From positions 99,948 through 163,947 of IMG/VR virus record IMGVR_UViG_3300032236_001232: a stretch of 64,000 bases of DNA, one strand, 5' to 3'. This DNA is from a virus. Of the stretch, positions 6,174-12,214 are shown in pieces. How positions within the stretch are numbered: the stretch's first letter is position 1; each line of letters opens with the position of its first letter. The translations under genes and the position numbers were made by a program. The notes beneath the pieces are model-generated. The model saw only the letters and a program-made list of their open reading frames with translations. It did no database searches and was not told the DNA's origin.

Positions 6174-7046
6174 ATGACGATTCAGGCAAAAGTAAACCCA
6201 TTACTCGGCTATATGAGACAGCCGAAGATCTATGTTCGATTACCAAGTAATGGATTCTTTTGGGAAGAGGGCAGTATTGATGTGCCCGAAAACAACGAAT
6301 TTCCAGTATATTCGATGACAGCCAAGGATGAATTAACATTCAAGACTCCGGACGCCCTAATGAATGGGCAAGCGGTAGTTGATGTTATTCAAAGTTGTAT
6401 GCCTAACATAAAAGATGCATGGAAATGTCCCGGGATAGATGTTGACCTTATTCTAATCGCAATTAGAATCGCTACATACGGCGGGACCATGACCATCTCA
6501 CATCAGGTTCCCGGGACTGATGAAACCGTTGACCACAGTATCGACCTTACTGCTGTAATGGATCAGATATTATCTACAACAAATTGGAATGAAACCGTAG
6601 AAATTAGTCCAGATATTACATGTGGTGTTAAGCCGTTAACATATAGGCAAATGACCGATGTAGGTATTAGGACGTTTGAATCACAAAAGACCATGCAGTC
6701 CGTTGCTAATTCCGATTTATCAGATGAACAAAAATTAGAATTTTTTAATCAAGGACTATCAAAGCTAACTGATCTTACAGTAGAAATGATTGCGGCCAGT
6801 ATATTTTATGTAAAGACACCCAATAGTTTTGTTGAAAATCGACAATTTATTCAAGAATTTATTCAAAATGCTGACGCAGTGTTAACGCAAAAGATTCAAG
6901 ACCTTATAACTGAAAACAAAAAGACAGTGGGTATTCTTCCAATAACAGTGCATTCTACCGAAGAGCAGATTCTTGCTGGTGCTCCTGTATCTTATGAATT
7001 ACCTATCACAATGGATAATTCCAATTTTTTCGTTCAAGGCTCTTAA
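6174..7046 (+). CDS. gp26: Baseplate hub assembly protein (T4 gp26-like)
   Basis: LPSNG, PVYSMTAKDE, ALMNG, D-D-ILIAIRIATYG motifs; ends in NFF. Confidence 0.8.
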   Translation: MTIQAKVNPLLGYMRQPKIYVRLPSNGFFWEEGSIDVPENNEFPVYSMTAKDELTFKTPDALMNGQAVVDVIQSCMPNIKDAWKCPGIDVDLILIAIRIATYGGTMTISHQVPGTDETVDHSIDLTAVMDQILSTTNWNETVEISPDITCGVKPLTYRQMTDVGIRTFESQKTMQSVANSDLSDEQKLEFFNQGLSKLTDLTVEMIAASIFYVKTPNSFVENRQFIQEFIQNADAVLTQKIQDLITENKKTVGILPITVHSTEEQILAGAPVSYELPITMDNSNFFVQGS

Positions 7047-7261
7047 CATTATCTAATGATGAGATTATCAAATTAGTTGAGAGCCATGAAAAAGAATCAA
7101 AGGTATTAAAGAAAGAATTATTTAAACTGTGTTGGTATATGAGAGGATCTATTACCATAGAGCAAGCCTTTCAATTAGATTACGAAAGTAGAGAAATTAT
7201 TAGTAGTATTATTAGTGAGAACTTAGAAACAACAAAGGAAAGCGGACTTCCTTTCTTTTAA
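7025..7261 (+). CDS. gp51-like hub assembly ORF in -1 frame of gp26, probably reached by programmed frameshift
   Basis: Frame FFRSRLLTLSNDEIIKLVESHEKESKVLKKELFKLCWYMRGSITIEQAFQLDYESREIISSIISENLETTKESGLPFF*. No ATG before about 7139; T TTT TTC heptamer at 7025-7031. Confidence 0.65.
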   Translation, partial: FFRSRLLTLSNDEIIKLVESHEKESKVLKKELFKLCWYMRGSITIEQAFQLDYESREIISSIISENLETTKESGLPFF

Positions 7262-7264
7262 TAC

Positions 7265-7711
7265 TGAGAAGTGAACTGCGTTCACTTGATATTTCGCGCG
7301 AAGCGCTCATATCATATGGTCTTCTTCGAAGAAGATATTAATATTATCCAGATTCATTGGTCACACTTCGCCCGCACAGGGCGAAGAATATTGAACATTA
7401 TCCGAGTTCTTATGTTCACTTAGTGTTAGAGCGTTACAGAGGCGGTCATCCGGTACCTCGAGCTCCGTCTTCGATATGACGGCAGCATAACAATATACAC
7501 TAACATATTGGTATGCCCAGGGTTTTTCTCCCTTCTTTTAGCCTATTTTAATATTTTCTAACAATCAAACAGCAGGTCTTGGCTGTCTACATCCTTGCGG
7601 GTAGTGATTGAGAACTCTTAGCGGCAAGAGATTTCCGTCCCTGTGATACGATTGTCCAGGTTTAGGGCACTTGAAGTTGGCCAGTGCAAGCCTTAATACC
7701 GCGTGATATGC
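7265..7711 (-). ncRNA. Putative large structured non-coding RNA of unknown family
   Basis: About 450 nt with no ORF in the track, more than 10 stem-loops, a 3-way junction with a GCAA tetraloop and a 7-bp loop-to-distal pseudoknot. G-U pairs favour the minus strand; begins right after the stop of the GIY-YIG gene. Confidence 0.6.
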
Positions 7712-8137
7712 CTATTTTTTTCTTATATGACTACCGTGAATACGGCAGTTTATGATGCCATTGTAATAATCGTCTGATTCCAATACTTTGCGTTCAAACT
7801 GTTCTCGGGCCTCGATGTAACTGGTTTCTGCCTTGCTGCCACAATAATAAAGTATTTCTCTTGTGAAATTTTCTTTGCCTAGTTTAGATATGTCTTCATG
7901 GAGATTAGGACTGCTACCCCAATATTCTCTCCAATCGCTGTCTATTTTACTTTTAATTCGTTTTTTCTTTTTAGTGCCGTTTTTTAATGTAACTGTTTTA
8001 TATGTAGTTTTGCTGAATTTACTTAATTTTTTGCCTATGTATTTTCTGCCGGTGACAGTGTTGGTTATGATATAAACATAACCAACACAATCCTCGGGCA
8101 GTTCATCAATAACTGTACCTTGATAGGTCCAGGTCAT
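7712..8137 (-). CDS. Minimal GIY-YIG-family nuclease (141 aa)
   Basis: GYVYIITN..GRKYIGKK, Y.GSS, F.REIL, E..EQ and YYN motifs; Lys-rich insertion; no C-terminal DNA-binding domain. Confidence 0.75.
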   Translation of the reverse strand: MTWTYQGTVIDELPEDCVGYVYIITNTVTGRKYIGKKLSKFSKTTYKTVTLKNGTKKKKRIKSKIDSDWREYWGSSPNLHEDISKLGKENFTREILYYCGSKAETSYIEAREQFERKVLESDDYYNGIINCRIHGSHIRKK

Positions 8138-8140
8138 TGA

Positions 8141-8368
8141 TTATTTTTTAGCTGCTTTTACTGGTGCTGCTTTCGCTGCGTCTTTTTCTGCCTTGCGAGC
8201 ATTCTTTTCAGCAGTGATTTCGTTGCGACGAGCCTTCACTAGTTTGCTGATATCGGCCAATGCTTTGCGAGCACGAGTTCCGGCAGCAGCGTTACCACTG
8301 GTGAATTTAGCATCTTCTTTGAGAAACTCATCAAATGCTGCTTGTAGATTTTCAACTGTCGATTCCAT
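8141..8368 (-). CDS. Histone H1-like protein (Hc1 family)
   Basis: KF..GNAAAGTRARKAL..I.KL.K..R.EI signature with Ala/Lys-rich tail. Confidence 0.75.
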   Translation of the reverse strand: MESTVENLQAAFDEFLKEDAKFTSGNAAAGTRARKALADISKLVKARRNEITAEKNARKAEKDAAKAAPVKAAKK

Positions 8369-8666
8369 TTTTTCTTCCTTTTGGTCTTCCGCCAGGCTTA
8401 ATCCTGGGTTTTGCTTTTGCTCTCAATTCTTTGAGACGTTGTCTTTGAGCCTTGGTGTTTTCTTGATTTTCTTTAAAGCACTCTAATGCCAATTGAGCCA
8501 TTTCTCTTTCAAGTTTGATCATTGAATATAAACTGGTTCTAACTTGAGCAGTAGAATCTTTACCTCGATTCTCCATAAACACGCTATGATAGTTATGCAA
8601 AGTTACAAAGTGCTTTACATATTCTGAATACAGCACTCTATAACGATCAATTTTTTCAGTTAACAT
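8352..8666 (-). CDS. Hypothetical helical basic protein (possibly divergent Hc1-like)
   Basis: Overlaps both neighbours (translational coupling); K/R-rich C-terminus. Confidence 0.5.
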   Translation of the reverse strand: MLTEKIDRYRVLYSEYVKHFVTLHNYHSVFMENRGKDSTAQVRTSLYSMIKLEREMAQLALECFKENQENTKAQRQRLKELRAKAKPRIKPGGRPKGRKNGIDS

Positions 8667-10443
8667 AATCTAAACTGTTAGAATACGAAGTGAACCCATT
8701 CTCTTTGATAACCCTAAGCACGTTATTCACACGCCCGATCAATTCATCCTTATGACTGATTAAGTATATATTCTTATTTCGTTCTCTGGCCATCTTTTTT
8801 AGAACCGCTAGGGCACTTTCTACCCCTGCTGAGTCCATGCCCGCATCGACTAACTCGTCGATAAACAGTAGATTGATATGTTGATACAGTCCTTCCCATA
8901 CATCACGGAAGGCAAAACTCATGCTGAGAATCAATCTATTGCGTTCTCCGCGTGACAAATTGTCAAAATCTAAGTCTTGTCCTAACTGTGTAATCTCCAC
9001 TGTAAGGTCATTTTGAAACACAACAGTATGTGGTAATCCAAGTTTGTCAATATAATAACTTAATCGCTTGTTGAGATAGGACAAATTCTGATCAATAATA
9101 CGTTTTCTAATAAAACTATCTTTATTGGTCAACAGTTTATGTAAGAATTCTTGATGATCCTTTAATCGAGTAAGATCATTAATGGTGTCCCAGGATATTT
9201 CTTGGATAGCGGTATTCTTTAATTCTTCAATTTGTTCATCAAAGGGATTTAATTCCAATACCTTGCTCTCTAGTGACTTGGTTAATTGATCTAAATTATT
9301 CTTATGCCCTAGTGCTTCCGCCTCTGTATCGTAGAAAGGTTCTGGTCTGCGCCCTTGTTCGCCTATGTCTGAAAGCTCTTGCAGCACATTATCATAGTTG
9401 GTCTGACAAGTATCGAGATATACAACAGCATCTTCTAAATTCTTAGTTGCCGTTGTGGTCATTTCTTCATGTTTGTGATCATGAATATTCTGTTCACAAG
9501 CAGGACATTTTTTATCCAGTAGTGATTCCAATGCCTTACGATACCGTTCAACGGCTTTTTCGGCCTGTGTCACTGCTGTTTCATATGTGGCTTTTTGTTT
9601 ATTTAGATCTCTAATCCTGTTAGAGTTTTCTAGCCACTGCTTTAGTGTAGCATGAAGCAGTAGTTCGGCATCAATATCTACCGATTCAAGACTGACAATA
9701 GCAGCACCTAGTTTTTCAATCTCTTCATTCTTCTTTTTATTCCATGCTGCGCTCTTAATGCCTAAACTGTCAATGCTTTTTTGAACGTTTTCGTTGGCAG
9801 ATTTAATTGCTTCAATACGAAATTGTTCGGAACTGATTAAATCTTTAGTTTCTTTGACACGAGTTTTTAGTAGTTCGGCCTTTTCACTGAGCAGTGTAAT
9901 GCCCAACAATTGTTCAATTACTTCACGTTGATCAGCAGCCCGCATGGCCAAGAAAGGTTCTGTATAGGTATTCAGAGCAACTAGATGTTTGAACATGGTA
10001 TGAGTCATGTCCAACATCTGTTCAATAGACTTTTGTGTTTCTCTGCTGTCACCTTGGCTTTCGTCCTCGCCTTGATTATCCATACTGATCTCTCGATCAT
10101 CTACATACAATCTCAGCAAATTGGGTTTGCGTCCTCGTTCAATACGATAGTTTAGCCCATTCTTTTCGAACTCCACAGTGATCAACATGTTCTTACCGTT
10201 GATCTTGTTGATTAAGTTTTCTTTACGGATGTTGGTCAGTGCTTGTCCGTATAGGGCATAGCTGAGAGCATTGATAATTGTAGTCTTACCGGTGCCGTTG
10301 CGTGATCCAGTATCGTCGCCACCTAGGTCTAGGTTGCTGCCTAGCACCAATGTAAGAGATTCTTGGTCAAAATTTACTGCCTGGGTTTGATTACCCACGC
10401 TCATAAAATTCTTTACGGTTAAGTTTTTAATGCGGAATGTCAT
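8656..10443 (-). CDS. gp46: Recombination endonuclease ATPase subunit (gp46, SbcC/Rad50-like)
   Basis: KNFMSVGN, Walker A NGTGKTT, zinc hook CPAC, signature LSRGE, Walker B LFIDE, ISH. Confidence 0.95.
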   Translation of the reverse strand: MTFRIKNLTVKNFMSVGNQTQAVNFDQESLTLVLGSNLDLGGDDTGSRNGTGKTTIINALSYALYGQALTNIRKENLINKINGKNMLITVEFEKNGLNYRIERGRKPNLLRLYVDDREISMDNQGEDESQGDSRETQKSIEQMLDMTHTMFKHLVALNTYTEPFLAMRAADQREVIEQLLGITLLSEKAELLKTRVKETKDLISSEQFRIEAIKSANENVQKSIDSLGIKSAAWNKKKNEEIEKLGAAIVSLESVDIDAELLLHATLKQWLENSNRIRDLNKQKATYETAVTQAEKAVERYRKALESLLDKKCPACEQNIHDHKHEEMTTTATKNLEDAVVYLDTCQTNYDNVLQELSDIGEQGRRPEPFYDTEAEALGHKNNLDQLTKSLESKVLELNPFDEQIEELKNTAIQEISWDTINDLTRLKDHQEFLHKLLTNKDSFIRKRIIDQNLSYLNKRLSYYIDKLGLPHTVVFQNDLTVEITQLGQDLDFDNLSRGERNRLILSMSFAFRDVWEGLYQHINLLFIDELVDAGMDSAGVESALAVLKKMARERNKNIYLISHKDELIGRVNNVLRVIKENGFTSYSNSLDYVN

Positions 10444-11453
10444 AGATCGTTGTAGATATCCATTAGGATTTTTTTATCAAATTGGCCGCTGTCGATATTG
10501 ACCAGTTGTTCGGCAACAATAGTGTCAATACTTTCAAATTTAGTGTCGGGCGTGTCTTCGTAACTGCCTTCTAAGTTGCTTTTATCTTGGACCAGACCAA
10601 TTTCTCTGATGTCATAGTCTTTAATAAAGGTTTCTTTGATGTAGTTGGCTTCTTCAAAACTGATATCAATGTCGAGATTAACACGCAGATACATTTTGCT
10701 CAGCATGATCTCATCCTTGCGATCAATTAGTTCGCTAAGTTTGATAGTTCTAAACTTAGGAGCGTCAGGCCAGTTTTTGTATTCTGGCTGCCCACCCCAC
10801 TCTATCATCATCATGCCGCGTTCATCATCCCACGCATCGGAGAAGTTATGTGGGAAAGCATTACCAATATATACAACATTTTGATTAGTTTGGCGTTTGT
10901 GGAAATGGCCACTGAACACATATTCTGGCCCGACAAAGTCTTCTGCCCGTAGTTCGCCATGATCCGGCATTTGCACCATGGCATTCATAAAGAACTTGGG
11001 CAGTTCAAAGTGTCCAAACACATAGCGGCTTTTGATGTTGCGCATGGTTTTCCACTCATCACCCACTAGCCAAGGCACTAGAGTAACTTCATCTAGTGTG
11101 GTAACACCTTCAACTACAGTTACTCCGGGGATGTGTCTGCCAAAAATACTGCTGTGAATGTCTCGTTTGTCTTTATAGAACAGGTCGTGATTGCCTGGGA
11201 ACCAGAAAAACTGTTTAAAGGCAGCACCCAGTTTCTCTAAACACCTAATACTGGTGTCTAGAGTGTATAGGTTCATGCTGTTTCTGTTGTGCGACCAATC
11301 ACCGAGAAAGATTGCAGTTTCGCAACCTGCAGATTGAGCCTCTGCAATAAACCAGTCTACAAAATCTTCACAATCCTGTAGATGAATTACGCTATTGGAC
11401 TTGGCGCCCACATGAAGATCTGTCATACAGGCAACTTTCTTAAACAGTCCCAT
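10440..11453 (-). CDS. gp47: Recombination endonuclease nuclease subunit (gp47, SbcD/Mre11-like)
   Basis: Metallophosphoesterase motifs TDLHVG, LGDW, GNHD, GHFE, SGHFH. Confidence 0.95.
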   Translation of the reverse strand: MGLFKKVACMTDLHVGAKSNSVIHLQDCEDFVDWFIAEAQSAGCETAIFLGDWSHNRNSMNLYTLDTSIRCLEKLGAAFKQFFWFPGNHDLFYKDKRDIHSSIFGRHIPGVTVVEGVTTLDEVTLVPWLVGDEWKTMRNIKSRYVFGHFELPKFFMNAMVQMPDHGELRAEDFVGPEYVFSGHFHKRQTNQNVVYIGNAFPHNFSDAWDDERGMMMIEWGGQPEYKNWPDAPKFRTIKLSELIDRKDEIMLSKMYLRVNLDIDISFEEANYIKETFIKDYDIREIGLVQDKSNLEGSYEDTPDTKFESIDTIVAEQLVNIDSGQFDKKILMDIYNDL

Positions 11454-12214
11454 TATACTTCCTTGGCTTTATATCCATTATAAAATTCTCCCTTGTTTGA
11501 CTTTTCTAAAACTGTTTTAGCCCACTGGCCTGTCTGTCTGTAAAATTCGGCTTTGCTGGTAAAGTATAACACTTTACCATCCTCAGTTTCAACCTCTAAT
11601 TTCTTCGAAACTTTTGCAGATCCCTTTGCTCCATTTTCCTTTGCAATTTTTCTGTGTTTTTCTTTATTATTATTTTGCCATTCAAGTAATTTACTAATTT
11701 TGTATTCTTTTGCTCCGGGAACAGATTTGTAATATTCTTTTAATGATGATGCTCTTCGAGCATTTACCTCGGGTGTAAATGCAGGTTTAAGCATCTCTTT
11801 TCTTTGTTCAGGAGTAGTATTAGCCCATTTTACTTTATTATATTCTGTAAAATGTTTTCCTAATGTTGATTTTATTGCAAGTATTTCTTCTTCAGTGAGA
11901 TTGATCCACCCATTGTGACCTAACCCATCACCGCCTCTACTAGAGTTTAATCCATTTTTATAAGAATCATGCAATTCAATATGTTTTATTTCTGCTATTG
12001 CTAACGATCCTAAAGATGTAAATCCTCGTTCAATAACTTCATATAAACAATTTTCAATACCATGTTGCTTCATGGCTACATGAATTTTTCTTTTAGTTTC
12101 TTTTTTAGCAGATCGGCAATGATCTTTCCATCTTGATTTCTTATATTCGAGTTCGGTGTCCATTCCAATATAGACTTGATTTAATGGAACAACTGTAATT
12201 TTGTATATAAACAT
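11453..12214 (-). CDS. Free-standing GIY-YIG homing endonuclease (Seg-like)
   Basis: N-terminal FIYKIT..VYIG, RW..H, E..I, GLN...GG; basic C-terminal DNA-binding region; own TATAAATA upstream. Confidence 0.8.
   Translation of the reverse strand: MFIYKITVVPLNQVYIGMDTELEYKKSRWKDHCRSAKKETKRKIHVAMKQHGIENCLYEVIERGFTSLGSLAIAEIKHIELHDSYKNGLNSSRGGDGLGHNGWINLTEEEILAIKSTLGKHFTEYNKVKWANTTPEQRKEMLKPAFTPEVNARRASSLKEYYKSVPGAKEYKISKLLEWQNNNKEKHRKIAKENGAKGSAKVSKKLEVETEDGKVLYFTSKAEFYRQTGQWAKTVLEKSNKGEFYNGYKAKEV

What the first reader, a model, noticed from the sequence alone, without database searches (positions are those of the whole stretch)
7265..8137. Minimal GIY-YIG nuclease followed immediately by a ~450-nt highly structured, pseudoknotted non-coding RNA: candidate novel ribonucleoprotein system
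Seen: this is the only long ORF-free stretch in a wall-to-wall coding window. It starts right after the stop of a 141-aa GIY-YIG gene and is packed with helices (+ coordinates): GCACT/AGTGC 7667-7687; CCCT/AGGG 7639-7667; CTCTT/AAGAG 7615-7630; a 3-way junction closed by CAATCA/TGATTG 7562-7610 holding ACAGC/GCTGT and a CC-GCAA-GG tetraloop arm (minus strand); AGGG/CCCT 7519-7533; GCATA-CAATAT/ATATTG-TATGC 7485-7516; CCGTC/GACGG 7465-7482; GAGC/GCTC enclosing GAGG/CCTC 7429-7465; TGAACAT/ATGTTCA 7392-7418; CTTCGCCC/GGGCGAAG 7366-7386. The loop ACACTAA (7497-7503) is complementary to unpaired TTAGTGT (7420-7426), which would form a long-range pseudoknot. The protein lacks the DNA-binding tail seen in the two homing endonucleases in this window and instead has a Lys-rich insertion (KKLSKFSKTTYKTVTLKNGTKKKKRIKSK). 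Inference: the RNA partners with, or guides, the nuclease, an ORF-plus-RNA layout reminiscent of TnpB/IscB omega-RNA loci. Alternatives are a ribozyme or a structured replication/processing origin.
Basis: partly seen in the sequence, partly recalled or inferred. Interest (0 to 1): 0.9.

Follow-up and report, generated by a model that had tools for sequence, protein, structure and literature searches.

The report
Twin-box jumbo-phage RNA, likely origin
The gene-free gap behind a small DNA-cutting gene of this giant lake phage encodes a real, doubly knotted RNA whose first third is already catalogued; it is not that enzyme's guide, it has relatives in lab-grown E. coli giant phages, and it most likely helps start phage DNA replication (inferred, not shown).

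Summary
7559-7692 (-) is Rfam Polynucleobacter-1 (106 bits), and its link to this gene family was noted in 2010. The RNA runs on to about 7343: an uncatalogued core with two covarying pseudoknots, then two 7-nt boxes around a hairpin. The boxes vary between phages yet are identical to each other (105/107 loci, at least 44 switches). The GIY-YIG protein has RNA-less homologues (462 cultured-phage records). Its gene slot beside gp46/47 holds a PD-(D/E)XK resolvase or endonuclease VII in related phages, so it is probably a Holliday-junction resolvase. A related RNA (same knot, core and twin boxes; shown by synteny and a motif descriptor, not by profile search) sits in cultured RaK2-like phages that lack the protein: 4-5 evenly spaced, co-oriented copies with their own promoters, all sharing one genome-specific box. 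This points to a phage-coded reader acting in trans. Best reading (0.45): a structured primer RNA of R-loop replication origins, with DNA-type mini-hairpins downstream. The scan noted this RNA before on other DNA.

The parts
7712..8137 (-). 141-aa stand-alone GIY-YIG nuclease (PF19835, phrog_447, mis-annotated 'NAD synthetase'); probable Holliday-junction resolvase
   Evidence: slot shared with PD-(D/E)XK resolvase and endonuclease VII
7940..8020 (-). Lys-rich beta-hairpin (residues 40-66); also present in RNA-less homologues
7343..7695 (-). conserved structured RNA, about 350 nt; ends inferred from conservation, not mapped
7559..7692 (-). 5' domain = Rfam Polynucleobacter-1 (RF01718); replaced by other 5' domains in other RNA types
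   Evidence: 106.4 bits, gathering 37
7484..7533 (-). two hairpins; the loop 7497-7503 is the 5' arm of pseudoknot 1
7420..7503 (-). pseudoknot 1 (7497-7503 with 7420-7426)
   Evidence: 98% paired, 7/7 compensatory
7428..7482 (-). most conserved core: helices 7462-7466/7428-7432 and 7456-7459/7439-7442, pseudoknot 2 (7476-7480 with 7445-7449)
   Evidence: same knot in cultured phages
7397..7403 (-). box 1 (GGATAAT), followed by a U-rich tract in most homologues
7366..7386 (-). central hairpin between the boxes; folds on the RNA-sense strand (G-U 37, A-C 0)
7343..7349 (-). box 2 (GGATAAT), always identical to box 1
7265..7340 (.). tail of DNA-type mini-hairpins on both strands: GCGAAGC hairpin 7296-7306 on the template strand, GCA-loop hairpin 7269-7287 on the sense strand
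8141..11453 (-). upstream operon: gp47 and gp46 (SbcD/SbcC-like), 104-aa ORF, Hc1-like histone protein
   Evidence: gp46/47 read from the sequence and from annotated relatives
6174..7261 (+). convergent baseplate hub gene and gp51-like frame that bound the locus, here and in cultured relatives

Best explanation
The element is the RNA part of a transcription-primed (R-loop) replication origin of RaK2-like jumbo phages. Shown: a pseudoknotted RNA on the gene strand, ending in two boxes that must match each other. Inferred: RNA polymerase transcribes it (here as the end of the gp47-gp46 operon, in cultured relatives from its own promoter); the knotted body folds and the polymerase pauses or stops in the U-tract behind box 1; a phage-coded factor acting in trans (a dimeric protein, or the RNA's own 3' end acting on every copy) reads box 1 and box 2 on single strands and holds the RNA as a persistent RNA-DNA hybrid; its 3' end primes leading-strand synthesis while the mini-hairpins downstream help load helicase or primase. 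The GIY-YIG protein is the phage's Holliday-junction resolvase and a conserved neighbour, not the RNA's partner.
For: Copies in cultured relatives are all co-oriented and evenly spaced round the genome (GAP32 35/99/178/262/341 kb; P 0.001-0.02, essentially one evolutionary event), each with an extended -10 promoter; T4 uses several promoter-plus-unwinding-element R-loop origins (PMC3016281). C(GNA)G and GC-GNNA-GC hairpins on both strands of the tail, against GNRA bias in the body; such hairpins are DNA-stable and occur at phage priming sites (PMC13037366); 3 of 14 in 164 kb lie in this tail. U-tract behind box 1 in 69/103 loci against 12/103 behind box 2, often a full terminator between the boxes in cultured phages. 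One clade has RNase HI directly in front of a divergent RNA at this locus. All copies of one genome share the box, which follows phage lineage, not host. Resolvase reading: three unrelated nuclease folds in one slot, mutually exclusive in the genomes tested; catalytic residues invariant; homodimer modelled at 0.59 against best control 0.00, runs agreeing in 93% of contacts, pLDDT 88 or more (mark reached by 20/30 solved pairs and 1/23 single chains).
Against: No origin activity, transcript end or R-loop was observed. No strand-skew switch at the locus (neutral for one-way origins). The tail is only mildly AT-rich (0.60-0.70). Freshwater genomes show one copy. T4 and ColE1 origins need no twin boxes, and T4 origins need no ornate fold. 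No promoter stands out in front of the window's RNA. Complete GIY-YIG genomes have no RNase HI of their own. Homology to the cultured-phage RNA was not detected by profile searches.
Confidence: 0.45

Rival explanations
1. A free, trans-acting ornate RNA (GOLLD/ROOL-like scaffold, decoy or regulator) bound at its two boxes by a dimeric phage RNA-binding protein; unrelated to replication.
For: Own promoters and terminator-like hairpins in cultured phages; elaborate conserved fold; genome-wide box identity fits a protein reader; box spacing varies 47-100 nt but collapses on folding; a copy sits in an E. coli island with defence-like genes.
Against: Does not explain even spacing and co-orientation of copies, the DNA-type hairpins on both strands, or a terminator that would leave box 2 outside the transcript.
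Confidence: 0.27
2. One reading: the RNA partners or guides the nuclease in the gp46/47 slot (GIY-YIG here), the box serving as a short guide.
For: A slot nuclease lies directly upstream in 74 of 88 loci and nearby in 84 of 88; 95/96 for RNA type 3; basic beta-hairpin on a tail-less nuclease.
Against: Three unrelated folds would have to use one RNA; 3-4 of the 4-5 copies in cultured phages have no nuclease neighbour; 462 cultured records carry the protein and the three inspected have no RNA behind it; close homologues with the full insertion lack it; no residue follows the box.
Confidence: 0.12
3. A ribozyme: the invariant double-pseudoknot core cuts or joins RNA at the two boxes.
For: Compact double-pseudoknot core with invariant unpaired residues.
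Against: No match to any ribozyme family; no internal guide complementary to the boxes within 900 nt; no interrupted gene.
Confidence: 0.08
4. A template for polymerase jumping between the boxes (DRT2- or telomerase-like repeat synthesis), which would also copy one box into the other.
For: At least 44 box switches with no mismatched tip among 101, tighter than any helix of the RNA.
Against: No RVT_1 reverse transcriptase in three complete genomes; diverged paralogues share one box, which cis copying does not predict; unit length varies freely.
Confidence: 0.04

Closest known systems
Polynucleobacter-1 RNA motif (Rfam RF01718; Weinberg et al. 2010, PMC2864571, Additional file 1)
   Same: 7559-7692 is a full-length member; the paper already places most examples downstream of a gene family with possible homology to cyanophage PSSM2_218.
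   Different: The model covers only the exchangeable 5' third; the 3' core, both pseudoknots, the twin boxes and the tail are not in Rfam; no function was proposed and none was found in purified phages in 2010.
ColE1 RNA II primer and T4 oriF/oriG R-loop origins (PMC5043065, PMC3016281)
   Same: Long non-coding transcript whose fold is proposed to govern a persistent hybrid; several promoter-driven origins per genome; RNase H and UvsW-type context.
   Different: No sequence or fold similarity; twin boxes with a genome-specific trans reader are unknown there; origin activity is not shown here.
OMEGA systems (TnpB reRNA, IscB omega/HEARO RNA)
   Same: Small nuclease gene followed at once by a pseudoknotted RNA.
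   Different: GIY-YIG, not RuvC/HNH; no IS200/605 element; fixed genomic position; RNA and protein each occur alone; no flank-derived guide.
T4 endonuclease VII and RusA-like PD-(D/E)XK phage resolvases
   Same: Occupy the same slot next to gp46/47 in related phages and replace the GIY-YIG gene.
   Different: Unrelated folds; resolvase activity of PF19835/phrog_447 proteins is untested.
GOLLD and ROOL ornate phage RNAs
   Same: Large, pseudoknotted, phage-borne, function open.
   Different: No Rfam match; smaller; twin boxes and DNA-type tail.

Membership tests
Polynucleobacter-1 RNA (RF01718) | full-length covariance-model score above the gathering cut-off | tested here: met
   106.4 bits against 37, model 1-141
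Polynucleobacter-1 RNA (RF01718) | downstream of a GOS11034/PSSM2_218-like gene | tested here: inconclusive
   upstream gene has homologues in over 400 cyanophage records; identity with PSSM2_218 itself not looked up
OMEGA (TnpB/IscB) | RuvC (and HNH) nuclease with bridge helix | tested here: not met
   protein is a GIY-YIG fold
OMEGA (TnpB/IscB) | RNA and nuclease obligately linked | tested here: not met
OMEGA (TnpB/IscB) | mobile IS200/605 element with a guide taken from variable flank | tested here: not met
   fixed synteny, no transposase in the loci read, semi-conserved 3' flank; no HEARO match
OMEGA (TnpB/IscB) | RNA-dependent, programmable cleavage | not testable with these tools
   needs biochemistry
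free-standing GIY-YIG homing endonuclease (Seg type) | C-terminal DNA-binding domain | tested here: not met
   141 aa, model ends after the catalytic fold
phage Holliday-junction resolvase (functional class) | replaces known resolvases at the gp46/47 slot | tested here: met
   few complete genomes tested
phage Holliday-junction resolvase (functional class) | intact active site and homodimer | tested here: met
   Y22, Y33, G35, E109, N126 invariant; dimer model 0.59 against 0.00; a model only
phage Holliday-junction resolvase (functional class) | symmetric cleavage of four-way junctions | not testable with these tools
   needs an assay
R-loop replication origin (T4 oriF/G, ColE1) | promoter driving a transcript into the origin | tested here: inconclusive
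   present at 20 of 21 cultured-phage copies read and at L117; none above chance in the window
R-loop replication origin (T4 oriF/G, ColE1) | A+T-rich unwinding element downstream | tested here: inconclusive
   tail A+T 0.60-0.70 (types 1/2), 0.65-0.79 (type 3), near to above the genome average
R-loop replication origin (T4 oriF/G, ColE1) | persistent RNA-DNA hybrid that primes DNA synthesis | not testable with these tools
   needs nascent-strand or hybrid mapping
DRT2/telomerase-like template RNA | reverse transcriptase in the same genome | tested here: not met
   no PF00078 match in three complete genomes, control genomes positive
known ribozymes, group I/II introns, RNase P, GOLLD, ROOL | Rfam model match | tested here: not met

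The most novel reading that the evidence does not exclude
A new kind of replication start: an ornate primer RNA whose 3' box is a short address, read in trans at the matching box of every origin copy (by the RNA itself or by an unknown phage initiator), so that each phage lineage fires only its own origins and bacterial islands can carry a copy to exploit or jam it.
Probability: 0.25. Interest if true: 0.88.

Novelty: new variant of a known kind. Interest (0 to 1): 0.66.

Why it matters
It extends a 2010 orphan motif into a large RNA family that spans uncultured lake and sea phages and, by architecture and synteny, lab-grown E. coli jumbo phages (PBECO4, 121Q), which makes its function testable. 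Two short boxes that change together, in all copies of a genome, are an unusual constraint that points to an unknown reader. If the origin reading holds, it says how RaK2-like jumbo phages start replication. It also suggests that a widespread cyanophage-type gene annotated 'NAD synthetase' is a Holliday-junction resolvase.

Tried and rejected
Complement of the boxes within 900 nt: none above shuffles. Covariation of the box with the GIY-YIG protein or eight neighbours: nothing for box position 1; one Hc1 column tracked position 5 in 30 redundant loci, taken as kinship. Pure cis register-shift pairing (my first idea): weakened when paralogues proved to share the box. Reverse transcriptase, endonuclease VII and RNase HI in complete GIY-YIG genomes: none. 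Sequencing runs: no RNA holder listed; DNA contigs showed no box-to-box joint, which shows nothing about rare forms. Bacterial genome scan with the core pattern: chance matches except two short MAG contigs. blastn of the RNA against cultured phages: nothing. Profile tests between the freshwater and RaK2 types: negative; the reverse model search failed internally. PA5oct/Ettore gap: no model or descriptor hit, not among the four ncRNAs of PMC7318152. Strand skew: follows gene orientation. PDB sequence search: no significant relative; Foldseek none at E 0.001. Paper searches for a description of the extended RNA: none. The descriptor was written after seeing both sets and is post hoc.

Full report
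Setting. The window comes from a partial (164 kb, about 46% complete) T4-like jumbo phage contig. Its nearest cultured relatives by baseplate hub and gene order are the RaK2-like phages GAP32, PBECO4/121Q, XbC2, PA5oct and Atu_ph07. The finding lies where the gp47-gp46 operon meets the convergent baseplate genes.

The observation. ORF 7712-8137 (-) is a 141-aa SegE-type GIY-YIG protein, PHROG 447, modelled at pLDDT 94 as the I-TevI catalytic fold (Z 8.4, rmsd 2.6, 82 aligned) with a long basic beta-hairpin. Behind it, 7559-7692 (-) is Rfam Polynucleobacter-1. Weinberg et al. already wrote that most examples lie downstream of a family with possible homology to cyanophage PSSM2_218 (PMC2864571 supplement). 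So neither the 5' third nor the gene link is new. Eighty loci found by protein and 119 by an RNA pattern show conservation running on for about 215 nt past the Rfam model. On 62 sequences my structure is 88.8% paired against 73% for shuffles and 40-46% for slid registers.

Twin boxes. The strongest signal that is not base pairing is identity between 7397-7403 and 7343-7349. The two 7-nt boxes are the same in 105 of 107 non-redundant loci over more than a dozen variants (shuffle mean 18, maximum 32); one of the two exceptions is a parsing error, the other differs at position 7. On a tree of 101 genes the box changes at least 44 times with no mismatched tip; the tree is short and recombination may inflate the count. 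Proteins 93-94% identical differ in box, and no residue follows it. No complementary third strand lies within 900 nt. Other RNA types with different bodies keep the module: type 3 (93/95 identical) and two type 4 loci. None of these types is in Rfam.

Independence from the GIY-YIG gene. Of 88 RNA-first loci, 67 have the gene directly in front, 7 with inserted genes between, 1 divergent; 9 have a PD-(D/E)XK RusA-like resolvase instead, and 4 have neither. One stand-alone copy has a perfect sigma-70 promoter. The RNA model hits behind the resolvase in 15 of 28 resolvase loci; other divergent RNAs, one behind RNase HI, fill several of the rest. Three complete GIY-YIG genomes lack both that resolvase and endonuclease VII; an 85% complete resolvase genome lacks the GIY-YIG gene. 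GAP32 and PBECO4 have endonuclease VII in the same slot, and four RaK2-like genomes have no PF19835 protein. Conversely 462 cultured-phage records encode the protein; the three inspected keep the Lys-rich insertion and have no room for the RNA. Three unrelated folds in one slot, an intact active site and a modelled homodimer (0.59 against 0.00) make a Holliday-junction resolvase the likeliest role (inference, about 0.7).

The cultured relatives. The 800-bp gap beside endonuclease VII in GAP32, PBECO4 and XbC2 is conserved in 72 records. It aligns element by element with the window RNA: the 5-bp knot with compensatory changes (20/20 paired at all five positions), the same core word, a hairpin and twin boxes. 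Profile searches do not bridge the two sets. One descriptor, written post hoc, hits the window RNA once in 164 kb, another complete genome once, 27 of 28 RaK2-type copies, 91 of 119 freshwater loci and once in 3.06 Mb of shuffled phage DNA. With the shared position I put homology at about 0.85. These phages carry 4-5 diverged copies, all on one strand, evenly spaced, each with an extended -10 promoter, only one beside a nuclease. All copies of a genome share one 6-nt box: CGTCAG in GAP32, XbC2 and BF, CGTCAA in PBECO4, CTTCAA in RaK2. The box follows phage lineage, not host genus. This moved me from cis pairing to a phage-coded reader acting in trans. A copy also sits in an E. coli island with a tyrosine integrase.

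Mechanism. Behind box 1 lies a U-tract (69/103 against 12/103 behind box 2), in many cultured copies a complete terminator, so box 2 may be read on DNA. Behind box 2 lie C(GNA)G and GC-GNNA-GC hairpins on both strands, unlike the GNRA-biased body. These are much more stable as DNA and occur at phage and plasmid priming sites (PMC13037366). ColE1 primes from a 550-nt folded RNA that forms a persistent hybrid (PMC5043065); T4 has several promoter-driven R-loop origins (PMC3016281). A UvsW-like gene is in the contig, recognised by eye only. I therefore favour a structured primer RNA of R-loop origins (0.45) over a free RNA-protein particle (0.27), a nuclease partner (0.12), a ribozyme (0.08) or a template-jumping substrate (0.04). 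Shown: fold, strand, boxes, distribution.

Verdict. Real; member of RF01718 in its 5' third; not an OMEGA-type system; an undescribed extension with an unusual constraint and a cultured model. I found no paper on the extended RNA. The scan noted it before on other genomes, once with the same link to cultured phages and the same origin guess; these notes are not independent support. Novelty: new variant of a known kind. Interest 0.66.

Noticed in passing
Cultured relatives annotate a separate small gene there.
   Followed up: no
L084, behind the core: RNA copy lacking the 3' arm of pseudoknot 1, box 1 and the central hairpin: natural deletion or assembly artefact.
   Followed up: no
L324:1992-2150 (same genome as L145); also L103: Short tandem repeats between the resolvase gene and the RNA start.
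   Followed up: no
L327-L337: Clade with resolvase, own promoter, RNase HI gene, then a divergent RNA whose two box-like words differ by one or two letters.
   Followed up: partly
L536:2958-13302: E. coli island at ffs with an IS3-interrupted tyrosine integrase, an RNA copy with the GAP32-type box and its own promoter, and DUF488, DUF4326 and dual-OB genes; 2 of 5426 genomes.
   Followed up: partly
L354:4600-5860 (-): PA5oct-like phages have a 1.2-kb ORF-poor stretch with a perfect sigma-70 promoter at the same locus; no model hit, possibly a far relative.
   Followed up: partly
L278 and L319: Short contigs in bacterial MAGs carry the freshwater-type RNA; probably phage contigs in the bins.
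   Followed up: no
window 7712-8137; phrog_447: The family is annotated 'NAD synthetase' in many cyanophage records but is a GIY-YIG nuclease.
   Followed up: yes
window 8141-8368 (-): Histone H1-like Hc1 protein inside the gp46/47 operon.
   Followed up: no
window 11453-12214 (-): 253-aa free-standing GIY-YIG homing endonuclease between the sigma factor and gp47.
   Followed up: partly
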